Sequence record: MZ436830.1
Direction: 5' to 3' (one strand)
From: Escherichia phage JK1
Length of the DNA stretch: 64,000 nucleotides
Positions within the stretch are counted from its first letter, which is position 1, and each line of letters starts with the position of its first letter. This document shows, piece after piece, positions 4,346 through 9,247 of the stretch. Under the pieces are notes generated by a model. That model was given only the letters and a program-made list of their open reading frames with translations, had not been told where the DNA came from and did no database searches. The translations under genes and the position numbers were made by a program.

Positions 4346-4615
4346 TTATTTAAAACGAATAGTTGAATCCTTAAAGAACAGCCCAGAACATACTGTTCCT
4401 TCTACTTTCTGCCCGGTAGGTCCAACAGCACGAAATCCAGTATGTTGGAAATCATTTTCAGAGCAACCGAACCAGTTATATCCAGTGATTTCAATATTCG
4501 TAAAACCACTTGATGATAAAATTTTAGTTGCATTATCAGCATCAGTACATCCTACTAAAGATACTGCTAATACTAATGCTGCGATAGAACGATTAATATA
4601 TTTCATAATTTTCAC
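4346..4615 (-). CDS. predicted lipoprotein
   Basis: signal peptide followed by lipobox LVGC. Confidence 0.55.
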   Translation of the reverse strand: MKIMKYINRSIAALVLAVSLVGCTDADNATKILSSSGFTNIEITGYNWFGCSENDFQHTGFRAVGPTGQKVEGTVCSGLFFKDSTIRFK

Positions 4616-4989
4616 TTAAATTTAATAGCTTGAAGAAGACTAATAATTCTCAAGCGACTTCTTTCATCTTTAACTGTAAAGGAAAGAGAGTCGCCAGATT
4701 TCATGGTAATAGTGCATTCAAAATCAAAATCTTCTGTGACTTCTTCGAAGAAGTCAAATTCTTCAGCATAAATTAGAACATTACTCTGCATACTGTGAAG
4801 AATTTTTCCGTTATTTCCAGACGCTGTACTAATCATCGTAACATTATGACCTTTCATATCTTCAACGATAAATTCGCTTGTAGATATTACAGCATTAATA
4901 GAACCATTCCTATAAATAGCAGACATTAGATATTTCTTTTCTTCGCCTTCGCGAATACGATATTTCTTACCGATTTTAAACATAATCAC
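4612..4989 (-). CDS. hypothetical protein
   Basis: 125-aa ORF, start overlaps stop of upstream gene. Confidence 0.5.
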   Translation of the reverse strand: MIMFKIGKKYRIREGEEKKYLMSAIYRNGSINAVISTSEFIVEDMKGHNVTMISTASGNNGKILHSMQSNVLIYAEEFDFFEEVTEDFDFECTITMKSGDSLSFTVKDERSRLRIISLLQAIKFK

Positions 4990-5164: not shown

Positions 5165-5584
5165 TTATTCCTTAAAGTGAGCTTTCAACATCTGATACAA
5201 GGACCATGCCTGTTCATTATTTTCAATAGTAACTTTCATGACTGGGAATTCTGTGAAATCTTCTATTTGTTCTTGCTCTTCCTGCTCTTGTTCTTCAGCT
5301 GCTTGGTATGGATTTTCCACTTCATCAAAGAATTCAGCTTCGCTAGTAGAAAGCCAAATAAAATCTTCATCCAAAATATCTTTACCGGAGGATAATGCCA
5401 ATCTTCCAGTAGATGTCACAATTTTAGTAGGACGACCAAGATAGTCAATATCTATAACTTTAAAAGGTTCCATACCTAAACGTCGTGCATAAATTCCGTT
5501 TTCAGTATGGTCTTTAATAAAAGCTTCTTGAGCTTGTTTATTTTTAAATTGATACCATTTATTGACTTCAAATCTAATAGCCAT
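5165..5584 (-). CDS. hypothetical protein with acidic [10 protein letters not shown] tract
   Basis: 139-aa ORF. Confidence 0.5.
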
Positions 5585-5799
5585 TAATAAATTTCCTTCC
5601 AGTAAGTTGTACCGTCTTCAGTGATTTCACGGAATACACCATAAATCGGTTGTTTATCACCAACCTTTTCATACACATAAACCGAAGTCAAGTGAGTAAA
5701 CTTGATGGTGTGTTCCTTTTGAACTACTACCAAATCTGGATCGAATAATACATCTTCAAATTCGTCATTAGTGCAGTTCTGAACAATTTTACGTTTCAT
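5584..5799 (-). CDS. hypothetical protein
   Basis: 71-aa ORF; stop/start overlap with neighbour. Confidence 0.45.
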
Positions 5800-5812
5800 T
5801 ACAATTTCCTCA

Positions 5813-6082
5813 TTAATTGAACAGTGGAGCGATGCGTTTCAGAAGAGTAGCAGCACCTTTGGCAAATTTTACATCATGAAAAACAGTTTCTTCTTCTGTA
5901 ACAACTCGAACTTTAATATTTTCACAATCCCAATTTTTACGAACAATCTTCAAAAGCTGCAGTAAATCTTTACATTCAGCAATATCGATAACACATCCAC
6001 GAGAATCTTCCATTATCGCACGATAACCGTAAGCCATACCATAATCGTTAAAAGATTGCTCGATGATAATTAAGTTTTCCAT
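5813..6082 (-). CDS. hypothetical protein
   Basis: ATG preceded by GGAG; track start is an upstream TTG extension. Confidence 0.5.
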   Translation of the reverse strand: MENLIIIEQSFNDYGMAYGYRAIMEDSRGCVIDIAECKDLLQLLKIVRKNWDCENIKVRVVTEEETVFHDVKFAKGAATLLKRIAPLFN

Positions 6083-6160
6083 TTTATTCTCCAAGTTGTT
6101 TTCTGTATCAGTAGTTGATATTGATATAGTACCATAATCAACTACTGATGTATATAGTTT
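6083..6160 (-). repeat. promoter/5'-UTR cassette, copy A (contains 13-bp perfect inverted repeat)
   Basis: shares ttttattctccaa...gtatcagtagttgata..tatagtacca with 25292-25380 and 51712-51790. Confidence 0.6.
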
Positions 6161-6181
6161 TATGAAAAAAAAATTTAAACT

Positions 6182-6673
6182 TTATGCATAGCGAGCTTTG
6201 CTGTAGTGTTTAATCCAACTTTCAGGAATGACTTTGTATGTTCCTAAAAATACCGTGTTGTACAGCTTAACACCGTCTTCTACCCACTGATCGGTAATGT
6301 ATGCGCACATAGCACGAGTACGGTTAACAACCCCTTCCTCACCTTCAGTAAATTCAAACTCATAAGGAGCAACGAACTTGATAGCTTGACCGAGTTTCCA
6401 CTTAAAATCTACACCTACATGCGAAGTATCAATCGTTTCAATTCCTTTAGCGGGAACAGCTTTCAAAAACGCAGGCTCAAGAAATTTCCATCGAACATAA
6501 CCAAACTGAGGTTTAGACATTCCATCTTTAGGAATGATACGCACTTTTACTTCAGAATCTTCATCTTTAACACCATGTTTAAGCTGAATGCTTACAACTT
6601 CAACCAATTTTCCTGCTGCCTTAGAACGGGATTTATCAGATACACGAGCAATTTCACCGATATTAATATTCAT
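6182..6673 (-). CDS. hypothetical protein (motB region), paralogue of 6747-7250
   Basis: 163-aa ORF; C-terminal ITDQWVEDGV segment shared with next ORF. Confidence 0.5.
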   Translation of the reverse strand: MNINIGEIARVSDKSRSKAAGKLVEVVSIQLKHGVKDEDSEVKVRIIPKDGMSKPQFGYVRWKFLEPAFLKAVPAKGIETIDTSHVGVDFKWKLGQAIKFVAPYEFEFTEGEEGVVNRTRAMCAYITDQWVEDGVKLYNTVFLGTYKVIPESWIKHYSKARYA

Positions 6674-6717
6674 AATTATCTCTCACTTGTTAAAAAGATT
6701 TTATACTCCGCAGGACC

Positions 6718-6747
6718 ATTATACTCTGGTCCCAAGAGTTTGTAAAC
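6718..6747 (-). promoter_or_regulatory. early promoter
   Basis: GTTTAC-N18-TATAAT. Confidence 0.5.
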
Positions 6748-7250
6748 TAGCTTACACGAACATTAATCACTGCGCTACGAGGAACTACGGAGTACTCTCC
6801 AGCATGAACTACATTAAGAAGTTCAACGCCATCTTCAATCCACTGGTCAGTTACCCAACCGCCGACCGGATTCGCGAATGGACGACGAATGTAAACTGCC
6901 TTACACAACAAATCAGTCGGGTCTTCAATTTTTTCAACTGGTGCCACATACATAGAAACTAAATCCATATCAATATGGGATTTTTCCTCTTCTTCTTTTT
7001 CAATTTCTGTCAATAGACTAAAATCTTTTTCATAAATAATAAGCGATGACACCATTCCATAATAGTTTCTAATTTCAATATACATCATGCCGATAAGAAT
7101 TCCGCTATTAACACTAATAACAGTAAAAGGATATCCGCCAGTTAAAGCAAGAAGTTCACAAAACTTATTATGAGATGTATTAGACAGTACCGGAAAATTC
7201 TTAATTTCATCAAATTTTTTCAATTGATAAACAGCATTATTTTTAATCAT
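6747..7250 (-). CDS. hypothetical protein, paralogue of 6182-6673
   Basis: 167-aa ORF; C-terminal VTDQWIEDGV segment. Confidence 0.5.
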   Translation of the reverse strand: MIKNNAVYQLKKFDEIKNFPVLSNTSHNKFCELLALTGGYPFTVISVNSGILIGMMYIEIRNYYGMVSSLIIYEKDFSLLTEIEKEEEEKSHIDMDLVSMYVAPVEKIEDPTDLLCKAVYIRRPFANPVGGWVTDQWIEDGVELLNVVHAGEYSVVPRSAVINVRVS

Positions 7251-7260
7251 AATTTTCTCT

Positions 7261-7812
7261 TTAATCTAAGGTAATAAAGCCTTTTAATTCGGCATGCGAT
7301 TTGCGGAACATTACTTGATGTCCGCCAATGATAACTTGGTCATCTGGCACTTCATAAATCGCAATGTACATTCCACGTTCTTTTAAGTCTTCACGCTCTT
7401 CTCGAGTGAACCATCTCATCATATCATATTCGCTAGCGAAAGCAAAATGATATAATGCAATAAACCACAATGGAATATAATTTTCAATTCGTGAATAATC
7501 TTTATTCCATTTAGTTTTAATAACATCATTAGCATTTTCAACTAATAACTTATCATCGTGTGGAATAGGAATACTTTCATGGCTTTCATAATTATCGCTA
7601 TGATGATGAAATGACGATGAATTAATACCGCAAAATTTTAGCCAAGTTCGAGTTTTCATAGAATCAAATCCACGATAAGGAGTTGATTGAACGCATAACT
7701 CTTGCCTAATTTTGACTATACCACTATCATCATTTAATGCGCTAAACGATGATTCAACACGATAAATTTTCATTTTATTATCCTCAGTAGCTATGGTGTT
7801 ATAATACCACAA
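7261..7812 (-). CDS. hypothetical protein
   Basis: 183-aa ORF downstream of an early promoter. Confidence 0.5.
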   Translation of the reverse strand: MWYYNTIATEDNKMKIYRVESSFSALNDDSGIVKIRQELCVQSTPYRGFDSMKTRTWLKFCGINSSSFHHHSDNYESHESIPIPHDDKLLVENANDVIKTKWNKDYSRIENYIPLWFIALYHFAFASEYDMMRWFTREEREDLKERGMYIAIYEVPDDQVIIGGHQVMFRKSHAELKGFITLD

Positions 7813-7830
7813 CTAACCGAGGAAGTAAAC
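7801..7830 (-). promoter_or_regulatory. early promoter
   Basis: GTTTAC-N18-TATTAT with upstream TGG. Confidence 0.45.
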
Positions 7831-7836
7831 AACTTT

Positions 7837-8520
7837 TTATCGTTTTGTTGGAAGAGACAGAGGATCGCAATCTTCCTCTGACGGAGCATCTTCAAGACCC
7901 ATAGCGTATCGCAAAGCATACTTCATCATCAGGATGTCTTTCGCACAGTCATGAATAGAATCATGTGCAACGAATCCATCTAAAGTTCCCTTTGGAAGAG
8001 GACACGTGGTCATATCACGAACAAGCAGAAGTGCTTCAATTCTGGTACGAATATCACGCTGATTCCAGAATTTACATGGTTCTAACTTAAATGTATCAAG
8101 CTCATTCTCGGAAACGCCATTAAGACGTTGAATATCGCGAATGAGATCGACTAAAATTGGAAAATCAAACGACATTCCACGGCACCAGCCTTGAGATTTC
8201 CAAGGATCGATATTATGTGCATTGATGTAATCGTTGAATTTTGCAATACCATCAATGGTGCTTACATCTTCATCGGATGGTGCAATATTTTTTCGAGCTT
8301 CAGGAGACTGATTTTTCCACCATTCGATAGTGCTTTTAGTAAAAAGACGATGTCCTTTTTGGCTTTTTAAATCAAATTTGATTTTAATGCCACGTGAAAC
8401 TAGTTCATCGAATGATTCAACTACTTCTGGGTTAGGGTCAAAAGCAATTACAGCCAAATCAATAACAGCTGCTTTTTCACCGCTTCCCATTGTTTCAAAA
8501 TCTATAATAAAATCAAACAT
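7837..8520 (-). CDS. dexA: exonuclease A (DnaQ-like 3'-5' exonuclease)
   Basis: 227 aa; N-terminal FDFETMG exonuclease motif. Confidence 0.8.
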   Translation of the reverse strand: MFDFIIDFETMGSGEKAAVIDLAVIAFDPNPEVVESFDELVSRGIKIKFDLKSQKGHRLFTKSTIEWWKNQSPEARKNIAPSDEDVSTIDGIAKFNDYINAHNIDPWKSQGWCRGMSFDFPILVDLIRDIQRLNGVSENELDTFKLEPCKFWNQRDIRTRIEALLLVRDMTTCPLPKGTLDGFVAHDSIHDCAKDILMMKYALRYAMGLEDAPSEEDCDPLSLPTKR

Positions 8521-8777
8521 TAAATTTTCCTCGCTAAATCACGAATTTGGCCTACAGTATAGTCTTGAATATAAACTTTATTAATAGGCTCATCAATAAA
8601 TTTTGCCATAGATTCAATATCTTTTTGTATCTCTTCAAGACTGTATACTATCTTTAAAGCTTTTTCGCGAATAGTAACATTATCAGGTCCTGAATTTTCT
8701 TGAATGACAGCTTTAACATTTGCCATAAGAGATTTAAACTGGTACCAACTTAATTCAATCATTAATAATCGCCTCAT
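8520..8777 (-). CDS. small hypothetical protein (tandem paralogue family)
   Basis: 85 aa; LEEIQKDI / DYTVGQI motifs shared with next ORF. Confidence 0.5.
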   Translation of the reverse strand: MRRLLMIELSWYQFKSLMANVKAVIQENSGPDNVTIREKALKIVYSLEEIQKDIESMAKFIDEPINKVYIQDYTVGQIRDLARKI

Positions 8778-9015
8778 AAAGATAGCTAATTTCGCCTAAA
8801 ACGTAATCATTGATTGTAACAGTTTTCACTTCACCACAAAAGAATTCTAACGCAATTAAATCTCGTTCAATTTCTTCTAATTGAAGCATCAACTTACTAG
8901 ATTCAATTTTTACAGTTTCACGATTTTTACCATGAGCAATTTCATAAATTTCGCTAACTTTATCCTGAAGAAGATAAAACTGATCTTTAGTTATTTCCAC
9001 GAATAGCTTCCTCAA
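8755..9015 (-). CDS. small hypothetical protein (tandem paralogue family)
   Basis: 86 aa; LEEIERDL / DYVLGEI motifs. Confidence 0.5.
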   Translation of the reverse strand: MRKLFVEITKDQFYLLQDKVSEIYEIAHGKNRETVKIESSKLMLQLEEIERDLIALEFFCGEVKTVTINDYVLGEISYLYEAIIND

Positions 9016-9247
9016 ATTTAATTAGTAATTTACAGACACTTTCATCTAGTGTAATTACCGTATCTGTATTACTGTGATATGATTGTTTTTCAATTCGTTT
9101 AATTGCTAATATAGTATCACTTATAAGATAAAGCTTATGAAGGAGCTCAGCTCCTGTTACCATAACATTAAGATTATCTTGCTTATTAGTATGCTTCCTT
9201 ATACCATCTATTAGACGATTTAAATATTTTGAATTGATGTTAATCAT
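8987..9247 (-). CDS. small hypothetical protein
   Basis: 86-aa ORF. Confidence 0.45.
   Translation of the reverse strand: MININSKYLNRLIDGIRKHTNKQDNLNVMVTGAELLHKLYLISDTILAIKRIEKQSYHSNTDTVITLDESVCKLLIKFEEAIRGNN

What the first reader, a model, noticed from the sequence alone, without database searches (positions are those of the whole stretch)
6182..7250. Adjacent paralogues sharing a C-terminal domain
ORFs 6182-6673 and 6747-7250 share a C-terminal segment (YITDQWVEDGVKLYNTVF...Y.VIP.S vs WVTDQWIEDGVELLNVVHAGEYSVVPRS) with different N-termini. This suggests a duplicated effector domain with swapped N-terminal modules in the motB-dexA early region.
Basis: seen in the sequence. Interest (0 to 1): 0.4.

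Follow-up and report, generated by a model that had tools for sequence, protein, structure and literature searches.

The report
T4-type motB and motB.1 share a domain
The two neighbouring genes are the phage T4-type early genes motB and motB.1, which really do share a small C-terminal domain behind unrelated front halves, but this was already published in 2021, so the finding is real and ordinary.

Summary
ORF 6182-6673(-) is full-length MotB (Pfam PF17613, 1.1e-96). ORF 6747-7250(-) is MotB.1, the gene just upstream, in a Tequatrovirus 98.8% identical to phage teqskov.

The shared segment is 16/29 identical (BLASTP 1e-9). Its Smith-Waterman score is 98 against 29.2±4.8 in 5000 shuffles. Family profiles extend the match to about 50 columns (hhalign 98.1%, E 8.5e-14): MotB 93-156 against MotB.1 114-163. 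AlphaFold2 gives both the same five-strand small barrel. The N-terminal halves show no similarity. MotB has a basic KOW-like barrel; MotB.1 has the GoF/Frd.2-type LSm-like barrel.

Patterson-West et al. 2021 (PMC7827196) already reported the shared CTD, the different NTDs and a duplication origin, so novelty is "already known".

Added here:
- The CTD is confined to about 28 clusters of small phage proteins among 1.84 billion representatives.
- It is net acidic and looks SH3/Tudor-like rather than OB.
- A Klebsiella phage carries one bridging gene (MotB-like front, MotB.1-type back), which supports duplication plus N-terminal replacement.
- The T4 reference sequence has an extra G that truncates MotB.1 to the much-quoted 13.8 kDa form without the conserved core.

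CTD function remains inferred.

The parts
6182..6673 (-). motB coding sequence (163 aa plus stop). MotB is the T4-type early DNA-binding protein that associates with H-NS.
   Evidence: Pfam PF17613 matches residues 1-163 to profile 1-162/162, E 1.1e-96. phrog_1671 matches at 3.7e-76. Annotated motB in phage AR1.
6467..6673 (-). MotB N-terminal domain, residues 1-69. It is a basic (+3.6) SH3/KOW-like five-strand barrel with an invariant S-x-x-S-R-S-K-x-A-G loop.
6203..6409 (-). MotB C-terminal domain, residues 89-157. This is the domain shared with MotB.1. It carries a 14-residue hairpin insertion and has net charge -2.2.
   Evidence: hhalign, CTD alignment A5, AF2 strands 97-110, 115-132, 135-142, 145-150, a 3-10 turn, then 154-157, charge.
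6218..6304 (-). MotB 29-residue core, AYITDQWVEDGVKLYNTVFLGTYKVIPES (residues 124-152).
   Evidence: BLASTP. Mean pairwise identity within the MotB family is 81% here, against 57% for the NTD.
6718..6746 (-). Early-promoter-like site (TTTACA, 17 nt, TATAAT) between motB.1 and motB. It starts right after the motB.1 stop codon and would give motB its own promoter.
   Evidence: 11 of 12 consensus matches. The sequence is identical in T4. Promoter function is inferred, not tested.
6747..7250 (-). motB.1 coding sequence (167 aa plus stop).
   Evidence: phrog_2333 at 1.5e-81. Annotated motB.1 in AR1. 65% identical to T4 MotB.1. Pfam PF17613 matches residues 124-161 only, 33.2 bits against a cut-off of 25.
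7002..7250 (-). MotB.1 N-terminal domain, residues 1-83. It is the LSm-like/SH3-like barrel of the GoF/MotB.1/Frd.2 family and is unrelated in sequence to the MotB N-terminal domain.
   Evidence: AF2 strands 7-10, 42-49, 55-61, 67-73, 80-83 and helix 24-37. BFVD hit to GoF, E 1.3e-3, probability 1.00. The family profile hits the GoF paralogue ORF 4612-4989 at E 6e-4. PMC12152347.
6936..6974 (-). Linker mini-motif IDMDLVSMYVAPV (residues 93-105, pattern D-x-D-[LVI]-x-x-x-Y-x-x-P). It is a short conserved element that sits in the linker here but at the extreme N-terminus in the 180-aa relatives. It is absent from T4's own MotB.1.
   Evidence: Alignments A2 and A7, with D94, D96 and Y101 invariant. 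Placement counts. AF2 pLDDT is below 60 here.
6756..6923 (-). MotB.1 C-terminal domain, residues 110-165. This is the shared small beta-barrel, net charge -2.2.
   Evidence: hhalign, A5, AF2 strands 118-123, 126-139, 142-149, 152-157, a 3-10 turn, then 161-165, charge.
6774..6860 (-). MotB.1 29-residue core, GWVTDQWIEDGVELLNVVHAGEYSVVPRS (residues 131-159).
   Evidence: BLASTP. Mean pairwise identity is 91.5% across the MotB.1 family, against 37% for the NTD.

Best explanation
The two ORFs are motB (6182-6673) and motB.1 (6747-7250), adjacent early genes in the dda-dexA-motB.2-motB.1-motB-cef block of a Tequatrovirus.

Each protein has two small beta-barrel domains joined by a disordered linker. 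They share only the C-terminal barrel of about 55-70 residues, whose 29-residue core W-[VI]-T-D-Q-W-[VI]-E-D-G-V-x-L-x-N-x-V is the best conserved part of both families. The N-terminal modules differ. MotB has a basic KOW/SH3-like barrel. MotB.1 has the LSm-like barrel also found in GoF, Frd.2 and a GoF paralogue in this window.

The most likely history (inferred) starts from an ancestral single gene with a KOW front, the mini-motif and the CTD, as still seen in a Klebsiella T4-like phage. That gene was duplicated. One copy kept the KOW front and its CTD diverged, gaining a hairpin insertion; this became MotB. The other copy kept the CTD almost unchanged and had its front replaced by a GoF-family module; this became MotB.1.

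Mechanism (inferred, about 40% likely): the shared CTD is mildly acidic and rich in aromatic residues. I propose it is a partner-binding or targeting module, not the non-specific DNA binder. It would bring both proteins to the same conserved target, for example H-NS/StpA-coated nucleoid or each other. MotB's tight non-specific DNA binding would come from its basic KOW domain and C-terminal tail. MotB.1 is acidic overall (pI 4.9) and would carry a different, possibly RNA-binding or oligomerising, LSm-like module to that target.
For: Identity:
- Pfam and PHROG matches.
- 98.8% DNA identity to phage teqskov and synteny with AR1 and T4.

Shared domain:
- BLASTP E 1e-9.
- z = 14.4 against shuffles.
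- hhalign probability 98.1%, E 8.5e-14 over 50 columns.
- The same strand order, with a 3-10 turn before the last strand, in both AF2 models at pLDDT 80-93.
- Foldseek on BFVD finds MotB with the MotB.1 model at E 8.8e-7 and 1.3e-6.

Different N-terminal domains:
- No similarity above shuffles.
- The MotB.1 N-terminal domain links to the GoF family (PMC12152347).

Shuffling:
- Architecture census of 235 cluster representatives.
- C-terminal tails INVRVS and VAILN each occur with both LSm-type N-terminal domains.
- Bridge protein P0087 aligns to MotB over its full length (E 4e-12) but to MotB.1 only over the mini-motif and CTD (66% identity, E 4e-28), and it is the only MotB-family gene between dexA and cef in its genome.
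- The duplication is old: 54% DNA identity in the core.

Mechanism:
- Charges are MotB NTD +3.6, both CTDs -2.2, MotB.1 -8.2 overall.
- The CTD core is 91.5% identical across the MotB.1 family and 81% across the MotB family, while the N-terminal domains vary.
- Published results: MotB binds DNA non-specifically, co-purifies with H-NS/StpA and changes H-NS footprints (PMC6070864, PMC7827196).
Against: - No experiment assigns DNA binding, H-NS association or toxicity to either MotB domain. The published view is that either domain could bind DNA and that the CTD is an OB-fold nucleic-acid binder.
- Net charge is a weak predictor of binding, since a local basic patch could still bind nucleic acid.
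- The direction of the evolutionary scenario rests on one out-group architecture.
- Deleting motB.1 in T4 gave no phenotype (PMC12152347).
Confidence: 0.85

Rival explanations
1. The shared CTD is itself the nucleic-acid-binding module, an OB-fold of the cold-shock/eIF5A-C type as proposed from HHpred. Under this reading MotB and MotB.1 are two DNA- or RNA-binding proteins that differ only in their accessory N-terminal domains.
Confidence: 0.3
2. MotB and MotB.1 are whole-gene paralogues. Their N-terminal barrels have simply diverged beyond sequence recognition, with no module replacement.
For: Both N-terminal domains are predicted SH3-like five-strand barrels of similar size. MAFFT places MotB.1 'SNTSHNKF' under the KOW-type 'STLSRSRL' loop.
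Against: There is no N-terminal similarity above shuffles, and hhalign of the two families aligns only the CTD. The MotB.1 N-terminal domain has detectable relatives in GoF-family proteins that lack the MotB CTD. The same CTD occurs with KOW, LSm-A, LSm-B and doubled LSm-B fronts.
Confidence: 0.1
3. The similarity is chance, compositional bias, or a recent DNA-level repeat or gene conversion between neighbours.
For: The genes are adjacent and the BLAST match is only 29 residues long.
Against: 0 of 5000 shuffles reach the score, z = 14.4. The profile E-value is 8.5e-14. DNA identity is 54% with near-random third positions. The same relationship holds in hundreds of phages.
Confidence: 0.01

Closest known systems
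T4 MotB / MotB.1 pair as described by Patterson-West et al. 2021 (Viruses 13:84, PMC7827196)
   Same: Same genes, same order, same shared CTD with different N-terminal domains, and the same duplication hypothesis. The paper's Categories 2 and 4 correspond to what I call the LSm-A and LSm-B N-terminal types.
   Different: The window's MotB.1 is a 167-aa form with a 22-residue linker insert carrying the D-x-D-x-x-x-x-Y mini-motif and an intact CTD. The T4 reference protein is a 119-aa frameshift-truncated form. My AF2 models suggest an SH3-like CTD rather than an OB-fold.
GoF / MotB.1 / Frd.2 LSm-like family (Comput Struct Biotechnol J 2025, PMC12152347)
   Same: The MotB.1 N-terminal domain here is 65% identical overall to T4 MotB.1 and gives the same barrel. 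Structural and profile links to GoF are reproduced.
   Different: That paper treats only the N-terminal domain and describes the CTDs as 'various structures'. It does not discuss the MotB-type CTD or the truncation in the reference sequence.
Tandem SH3-like barrel proteins (Spt5/NusG KOW repeats, tandem Tudor of 53BP1, EF-P/eIF5A)

Membership tests
Pfam PF17613 (motB, modifier of transcription) | Profile match above the gathering score (25 bits) | tested here: met
   MotB scores 321.6 bits over the full length. MotB.1 scores 33.2 bits, but only residues 124-161 match, against profile positions 116-153. MotB.1 is therefore a member through its CTD only.
MotB proper (phrog_1671; Category 1 of PMC7827196) | KOW-like N-terminal domain with the S-R-S-K-A-A-G loop, plus a MotB-type CTD (KLYN variant with the hairpin insertion) | tested here: met
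   ORF 6182-6673 matches phrog_1671 at 3.7e-76 and carries the invariant columns of A3. ORF 6747-7250 does not have this N-terminal domain.
MotB.1 group (phrog_2333; Category 2 of PMC7827196) | MotB.1-type CTD (DPTDLLC...GWVTDQWIEDGVELLNVVH), a non-KOW N-terminal domain, and a gene position immediately upstream of motB | tested here: met
   phrog_2333 at 1.5e-81. Alignment with T4 and AR1 MotB.1. Gene order.
GoF/MotB.1/Frd.2 LSm-like fold family | N-terminal bent five-stranded antiparallel sheet, homologous to the GoF N-terminal domain | tested here: met
   AF2 gives five strands in residues 7-83. Foldseek hits GoF at E 1.3e-3, probability 1.00. The family profile hits the GoF paralogue ORF 4612-4989.
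Canonical Sm/LSm (Hfq-like) proteins | Sm1/Sm2 sequence motifs, ring oligomer, RNA binding | not tested
OB-fold, cold-shock DNA-binding type (published assignment for the MotB CTD) | Five-strand barrel with order b1-b2-b3-helix-b4-b5 | tested here: inconclusive
KOW motif (PF00467) | Pfam KOW match in the N-terminal barrel | tested here: inconclusive

The most novel reading that the evidence does not exclude
The MotB-family CTD is not an OB-fold DNA binder. It is instead a phage-specific Tudor/SH3-like partner-recognition module built on an acidic W-x-x-D-Q-W-x-E-D-G aromatic surface. T4-like phages would graft it onto interchangeable front ends (KOW, one or two LSm-like barrels) to deliver different activities to one conserved host target, such as H-NS/StpA filaments or RNA polymerase. 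MotB.1 would act as an acidic partner or antagonist of MotB. Published 'no phenotype' and biochemical data for MotB.1 may partly reflect the frameshift-truncated 119-aa reference ORF.
Probability: 0.25. Interest if true: 0.45.

Novelty: already known. Interest (0 to 1): 0.15.

Why it matters
The core finding adds nothing new, because the shared CTD of MotB and MotB.1 is in the literature. The by-products matter slightly more to people who work on T4 host takeover.

1. The standard T4 reference sequence truncates MotB.1 just before its most conserved 24 residues, and synthetic constructs may have copied that error.
2. The charge distribution and predicted topology question the idea that the CTD is the DNA-binding OB-fold. 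They point to simple domain-dissection experiments.
3. The family is a clean, small example of recent domain shuffling among phage early genes.

Tried and rejected
- **PDB sequence searches.** Searches with MotB, with MotB.1 and with a CTD profile gave nothing meaningful.
- **Pairwise tests outside the core.** The region just upstream of the 29-residue core was not significant on its own (575 of 5000 shuffles reached the score), and neither were the N-terminal domains. Only profile comparison extended the homology.
- **A spurious MAFFT pairing.** MAFFT's first alignment paired MotB 'KFVAPYE' with MotB.1 'MYVAPVE'. hhalign and the CTD-only alignment instead pair MotB 'AIKFVAPYEF' with MotB.1 'AVYIRRPF', so I dropped the first pairing.
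- **MotB.2.** MotB.2 (7261-7812) is not related to either protein, despite 'transcriptional regulator (x3)' annotations in some records.
- **Further CTD copies.** A six-frame HMM scan found none in the 64-kb window.
- **Long repeat proteins.** Those in the 1.84-billion-protein search (P0243, P0244, P0246, P0247, P0250, P0251) are Ig, MucBP or tail-repeat proteins matching short strand-like stretches. I treated them as spurious.
- **hhalign of A3 against A7.** This aligned full lengths only because A7 mixes KOW-type and LSm-type N-terminal domains. It is not evidence that the two N-terminal types are homologous.
- **Domain cropping.** Model coordinates are not exposed, so I could not crop domains or superpose the two CTDs.

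Full report
**What is at the coordinates.** The window is a Tequatrovirus (T4-like) genome segment. Positions 5500-8600 are 98.8% identical to Escherichia phage teqskov and collinear with AR1 and T4. All genes here are on the minus strand, in the transcription order dda, three small ORFs, dexA, motB.2, motB.1, motB, a 93-aa ORF, cef, goF.

ORF 6182-6673 is MotB itself. Pfam PF17613 matches end to end (E 1.1e-96) and phrog_1671 matches at 3.7e-76. ORF 6747-7250 is MotB.1: it matches phrog_2333 at 1.5e-81, is annotated motB.1 in AR1, and is 65% identical to T4 MotB.1. A strong early-promoter-like site (TTTACA, 17 nt, TATAAT; 11 of 12 matches) lies in the 73-bp gap between them. It starts right after the motB.1 stop codon and is identical in T4.

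**Check of the observation.**
- BLASTP aligns MotB 124-152 with MotB.1 131-159 at 16/29 identities, no gaps, E 1e-9.
- The Smith-Waterman score is 98, against 29.2±4.8 (maximum 60) for 5000 shuffles. That gives z = 14.4 and a Gumbel P of about 4e-9.
- The N-terminal halves score no better than shuffles.
- I built family alignments from 52 MotB and 35 MotB.1 homologues. hhalign on these extends the match to 50 columns, MotB 93-156 against MotB.1 114-163, at probability 98.1% and E 8.5e-14. MotB carries a 14-residue insertion. A CTD-only alignment shows invariant L, D, W, E, L, N and V columns across both families.
- The 29 shared codons are only 54% identical in DNA, with third positions matching in 9 of 29. 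This is an old duplication under protein-level selection, not a DNA repeat or gene conversion.

**Anatomy.** AlphaFold2 with the family alignments gives two-domain models: MotB at pLDDT 81.2 and MotB.1 at 78.6. In both, the linker is low-confidence (MotB 70-85, MotB.1 87-97).

The CTDs have the same order of elements. There are four strands, then a 3-10 turn, then a last short strand: MotB 97-110, 115-132, 135-142, 145-150, turn, 154-157; MotB.1 118-123, 126-139, 142-149, 152-157, turn, 161-165. The first hairpin is longer in MotB because of the insertion.

The MotB N-terminal domain is a five-strand barrel with an invariant S-x-x-S-R-S-K-x-A-G loop. The MotB.1 N-terminal domain is a five-strand barrel with one helix.

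The MotB.1 family profile also hits ORF 4612-4989 in this window (E 6e-4). That ORF is a GoF paralogue (phrog_622 at 2.3e-29). MotB.1 is therefore a chimera of a GoF-family front and a MotB-family back.

**Distribution and evolution.** A CTD-only profile searched against 1.84 billion cluster representatives finds 34 proteins. About 28 are real, and all of those are small proteins of 43-251 aa. The long hits are Ig, MucBP or tail-repeat proteins and are spurious. The domain therefore appears confined to these small, T4-like-phage-type proteins.

Among 235 retrieved representatives the architectures are as follows:

| CTD type | N-terminal arrangement | Count |
|---|---|---|
| MotB-type | KOW | 101 |
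| MotB.1-type | LSm-B, preceded by an N-terminal D-x-D-x-x-x-x-Y mini-motif | 69 |
| MotB.1-type | LSm-A (T4 type), no mini-motif | 21 |
| MotB.1-type | LSm-A, mini-motif in the linker (the window's type) | 6 |
| MotB.1-type | KOW, mini-motif in the linker | 10 |
| MotB.1-type | two LSm-B barrels | 6 |

The same C-terminal tails (INVRVS, VAILN) occur with both LSm-type fronts. That points to recent mosaic exchange.

Within the MotB.1 family the CTD core is 91.5% identical on average, while the N-terminal domain is 37%. In the MotB family the figures are 81% and 57%.

Klebsiella phage pzk-kv8 has a single MotB-family gene between dexA and cef. Its product, P0087, aligns to MotB over its whole length, including the S-R-S-K loop (E 4e-12). 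It aligns to MotB.1 only over the mini-motif and CTD (66% identity, E 4e-28).

The simplest history is one ancestral gene with a KOW front, the mini-motif and the CTD. It was duplicated in the Tequatrovirus lineage, the front of one copy was replaced by a GoF-family barrel, and the CTD of the other copy diverged. The direction of this history is inferred.

[quoted passage not shown] It binds modified and unmodified DNA without detectable specificity, co-purifies with H-NS and StpA, changes H-NS footprints, and de-represses part of the H-NS regulon (PMC6070864, PMC7827196). MotB.1 has no known function, and its deletion has no phenotype in the laboratory (PMC12152347).

No experiment assigns any activity to a specific domain. 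The authors suggest that the CTD is an OB-fold and that either domain could bind DNA.

My data lean the other way. Both CTDs are net acidic (-2.2) and MotB.1 as a whole has pI 4.9. MotB's positive charge sits in its KOW domain (+3.6) and its last six residues. The model topology is SH3-like rather than OB.

I therefore favour, at roughly 40%, a model in which the CTD is a conserved partner-binding or association module and the N-terminal modules supply the variable activity. The published 'CTD binds nucleic acid' model gets about 30%. Both are inferences.

**Comparison with what is known.** The finding itself is already published. Patterson-West et al. 2021 state that T4 MotB and MotB.1 share a conserved CTD with different N-terminal domains and that one gene may have arisen by duplication of the other. 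They also describe further categories with other N-terminal domains. The 2025 paper places the MotB.1 N-terminal domain in the LSm-like family with GoF and Frd.2. A full-text search for 'MotB.1' finds only these two papers. Pfam already scores MotB.1 above the PF17613 threshold. Novelty is therefore 'already known'.

**By-product.** The T4 reference sequence (AF158101 / NC_000866) has ATTGGAAG where the window and the re-sequenced T4 genomes MT984581 and KJ477684 have ATTGAAG. The extra G ends the annotated MotB.1 at 119 aa (13.8 kDa, '...WVTDQWIGRWR*'). Without it the protein is 143 aa and ends '...WVTDQWIEDGVELLNVVHAGEYSVVPRSAVVAILN'. This 143-aa form is seen on 256 contigs (P0019).

Eleven further T4, RB55 and RB59 records match the 558-nt query over 557 nt. 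The 2025 paper quotes a 13.8 kDa monomer and NC_000866.4 coordinates, and does not mention a frameshift. Its synthetic constructs may therefore lack the conserved CTD core.

**Verdict.** This is a real, statistically solid and correctly interpreted observation of a known paralogue pair. Interest is low. The side observations are modest leads: the reference frameshift, the acidic SH3-like CTD, the movable mini-motif and the bridging single-gene architecture.

Noticed in passing
L002 (NC_000866.4) about 2300-2310, i.e. T4 about 7299-7309; compare window 6840-6850: The T4 reference genome has one extra G in motB.1 (ATTGGAAG instead of ATTGAAG). This truncates the annotated protein to 119 aa (13.8 kDa) just before the conserved CTD core. 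Re-sequenced T4 genomes encode 143 aa. Published MotB.1 work quotes the 13.8 kDa form.
   Followed up: yes
window 4612-4989 (-): A 125-aa ORF between 39.1 and 39.2, absent from T4, is a GoF paralogue (phrog_622 at 2.3e-29) and is weakly hit by the MotB.1 N-terminal profile. Together with goF (5165-5584) and the motB.1 N-terminal domain, that makes three LSm-like modules within about 2.7 kb.
   Followed up: partly
window 6936-6974 (-); P0030/P0034/P0059 N-termini; P0087 residues 72-86: A short conserved motif, D-x-D-[LVI]-x-x-x-Y-x-x-P, sits in the linker before the CTD in some family members and at the extreme N-terminus in the 180-aa forms. It is missing in T4-type MotB.1. AF2 gives it low confidence, so it may be a linear binding motif.
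   Followed up: partly
window 8520-8777, 8755-9015, 8987-9247 (-): Three tandem, slightly overlapping ORFs of about 85 aa lie between dda and dexA (the dexA.1/dexA.2 region) and look like paralogues of one another. All three hit phrog_5263, and the first two are 31% identical.
   Followed up: partly
L005 4001-4444 (Klebsiella phage pzk-kv8, OR231917.1): This is the only MotB-family gene between dexA and cef in that phage. It combines a MotB-like KOW front with the mini-motif and a MotB.1-type CTD, so it is a probable ancestral or bridging architecture.
   Followed up: yes
protein P0245 (43 aa, from the representative library): This looks like a deletion product. The first 11 residues of MotB.2 (MKIYRVESSFS) are fused, after four other residues, to the last 28 residues of MotB.1 (EDGVELLNVVHAGDFSVVPRSAVVAILN).
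   Followed up: no
window 6386-6745 (+) and 6588-6962 (+): Long antisense ORFs (119 and 124 aa) overlap motB and motB.1. I did not search them for homologues, and I treated them as by-products of the coding strand opposite.
   Followed up: no
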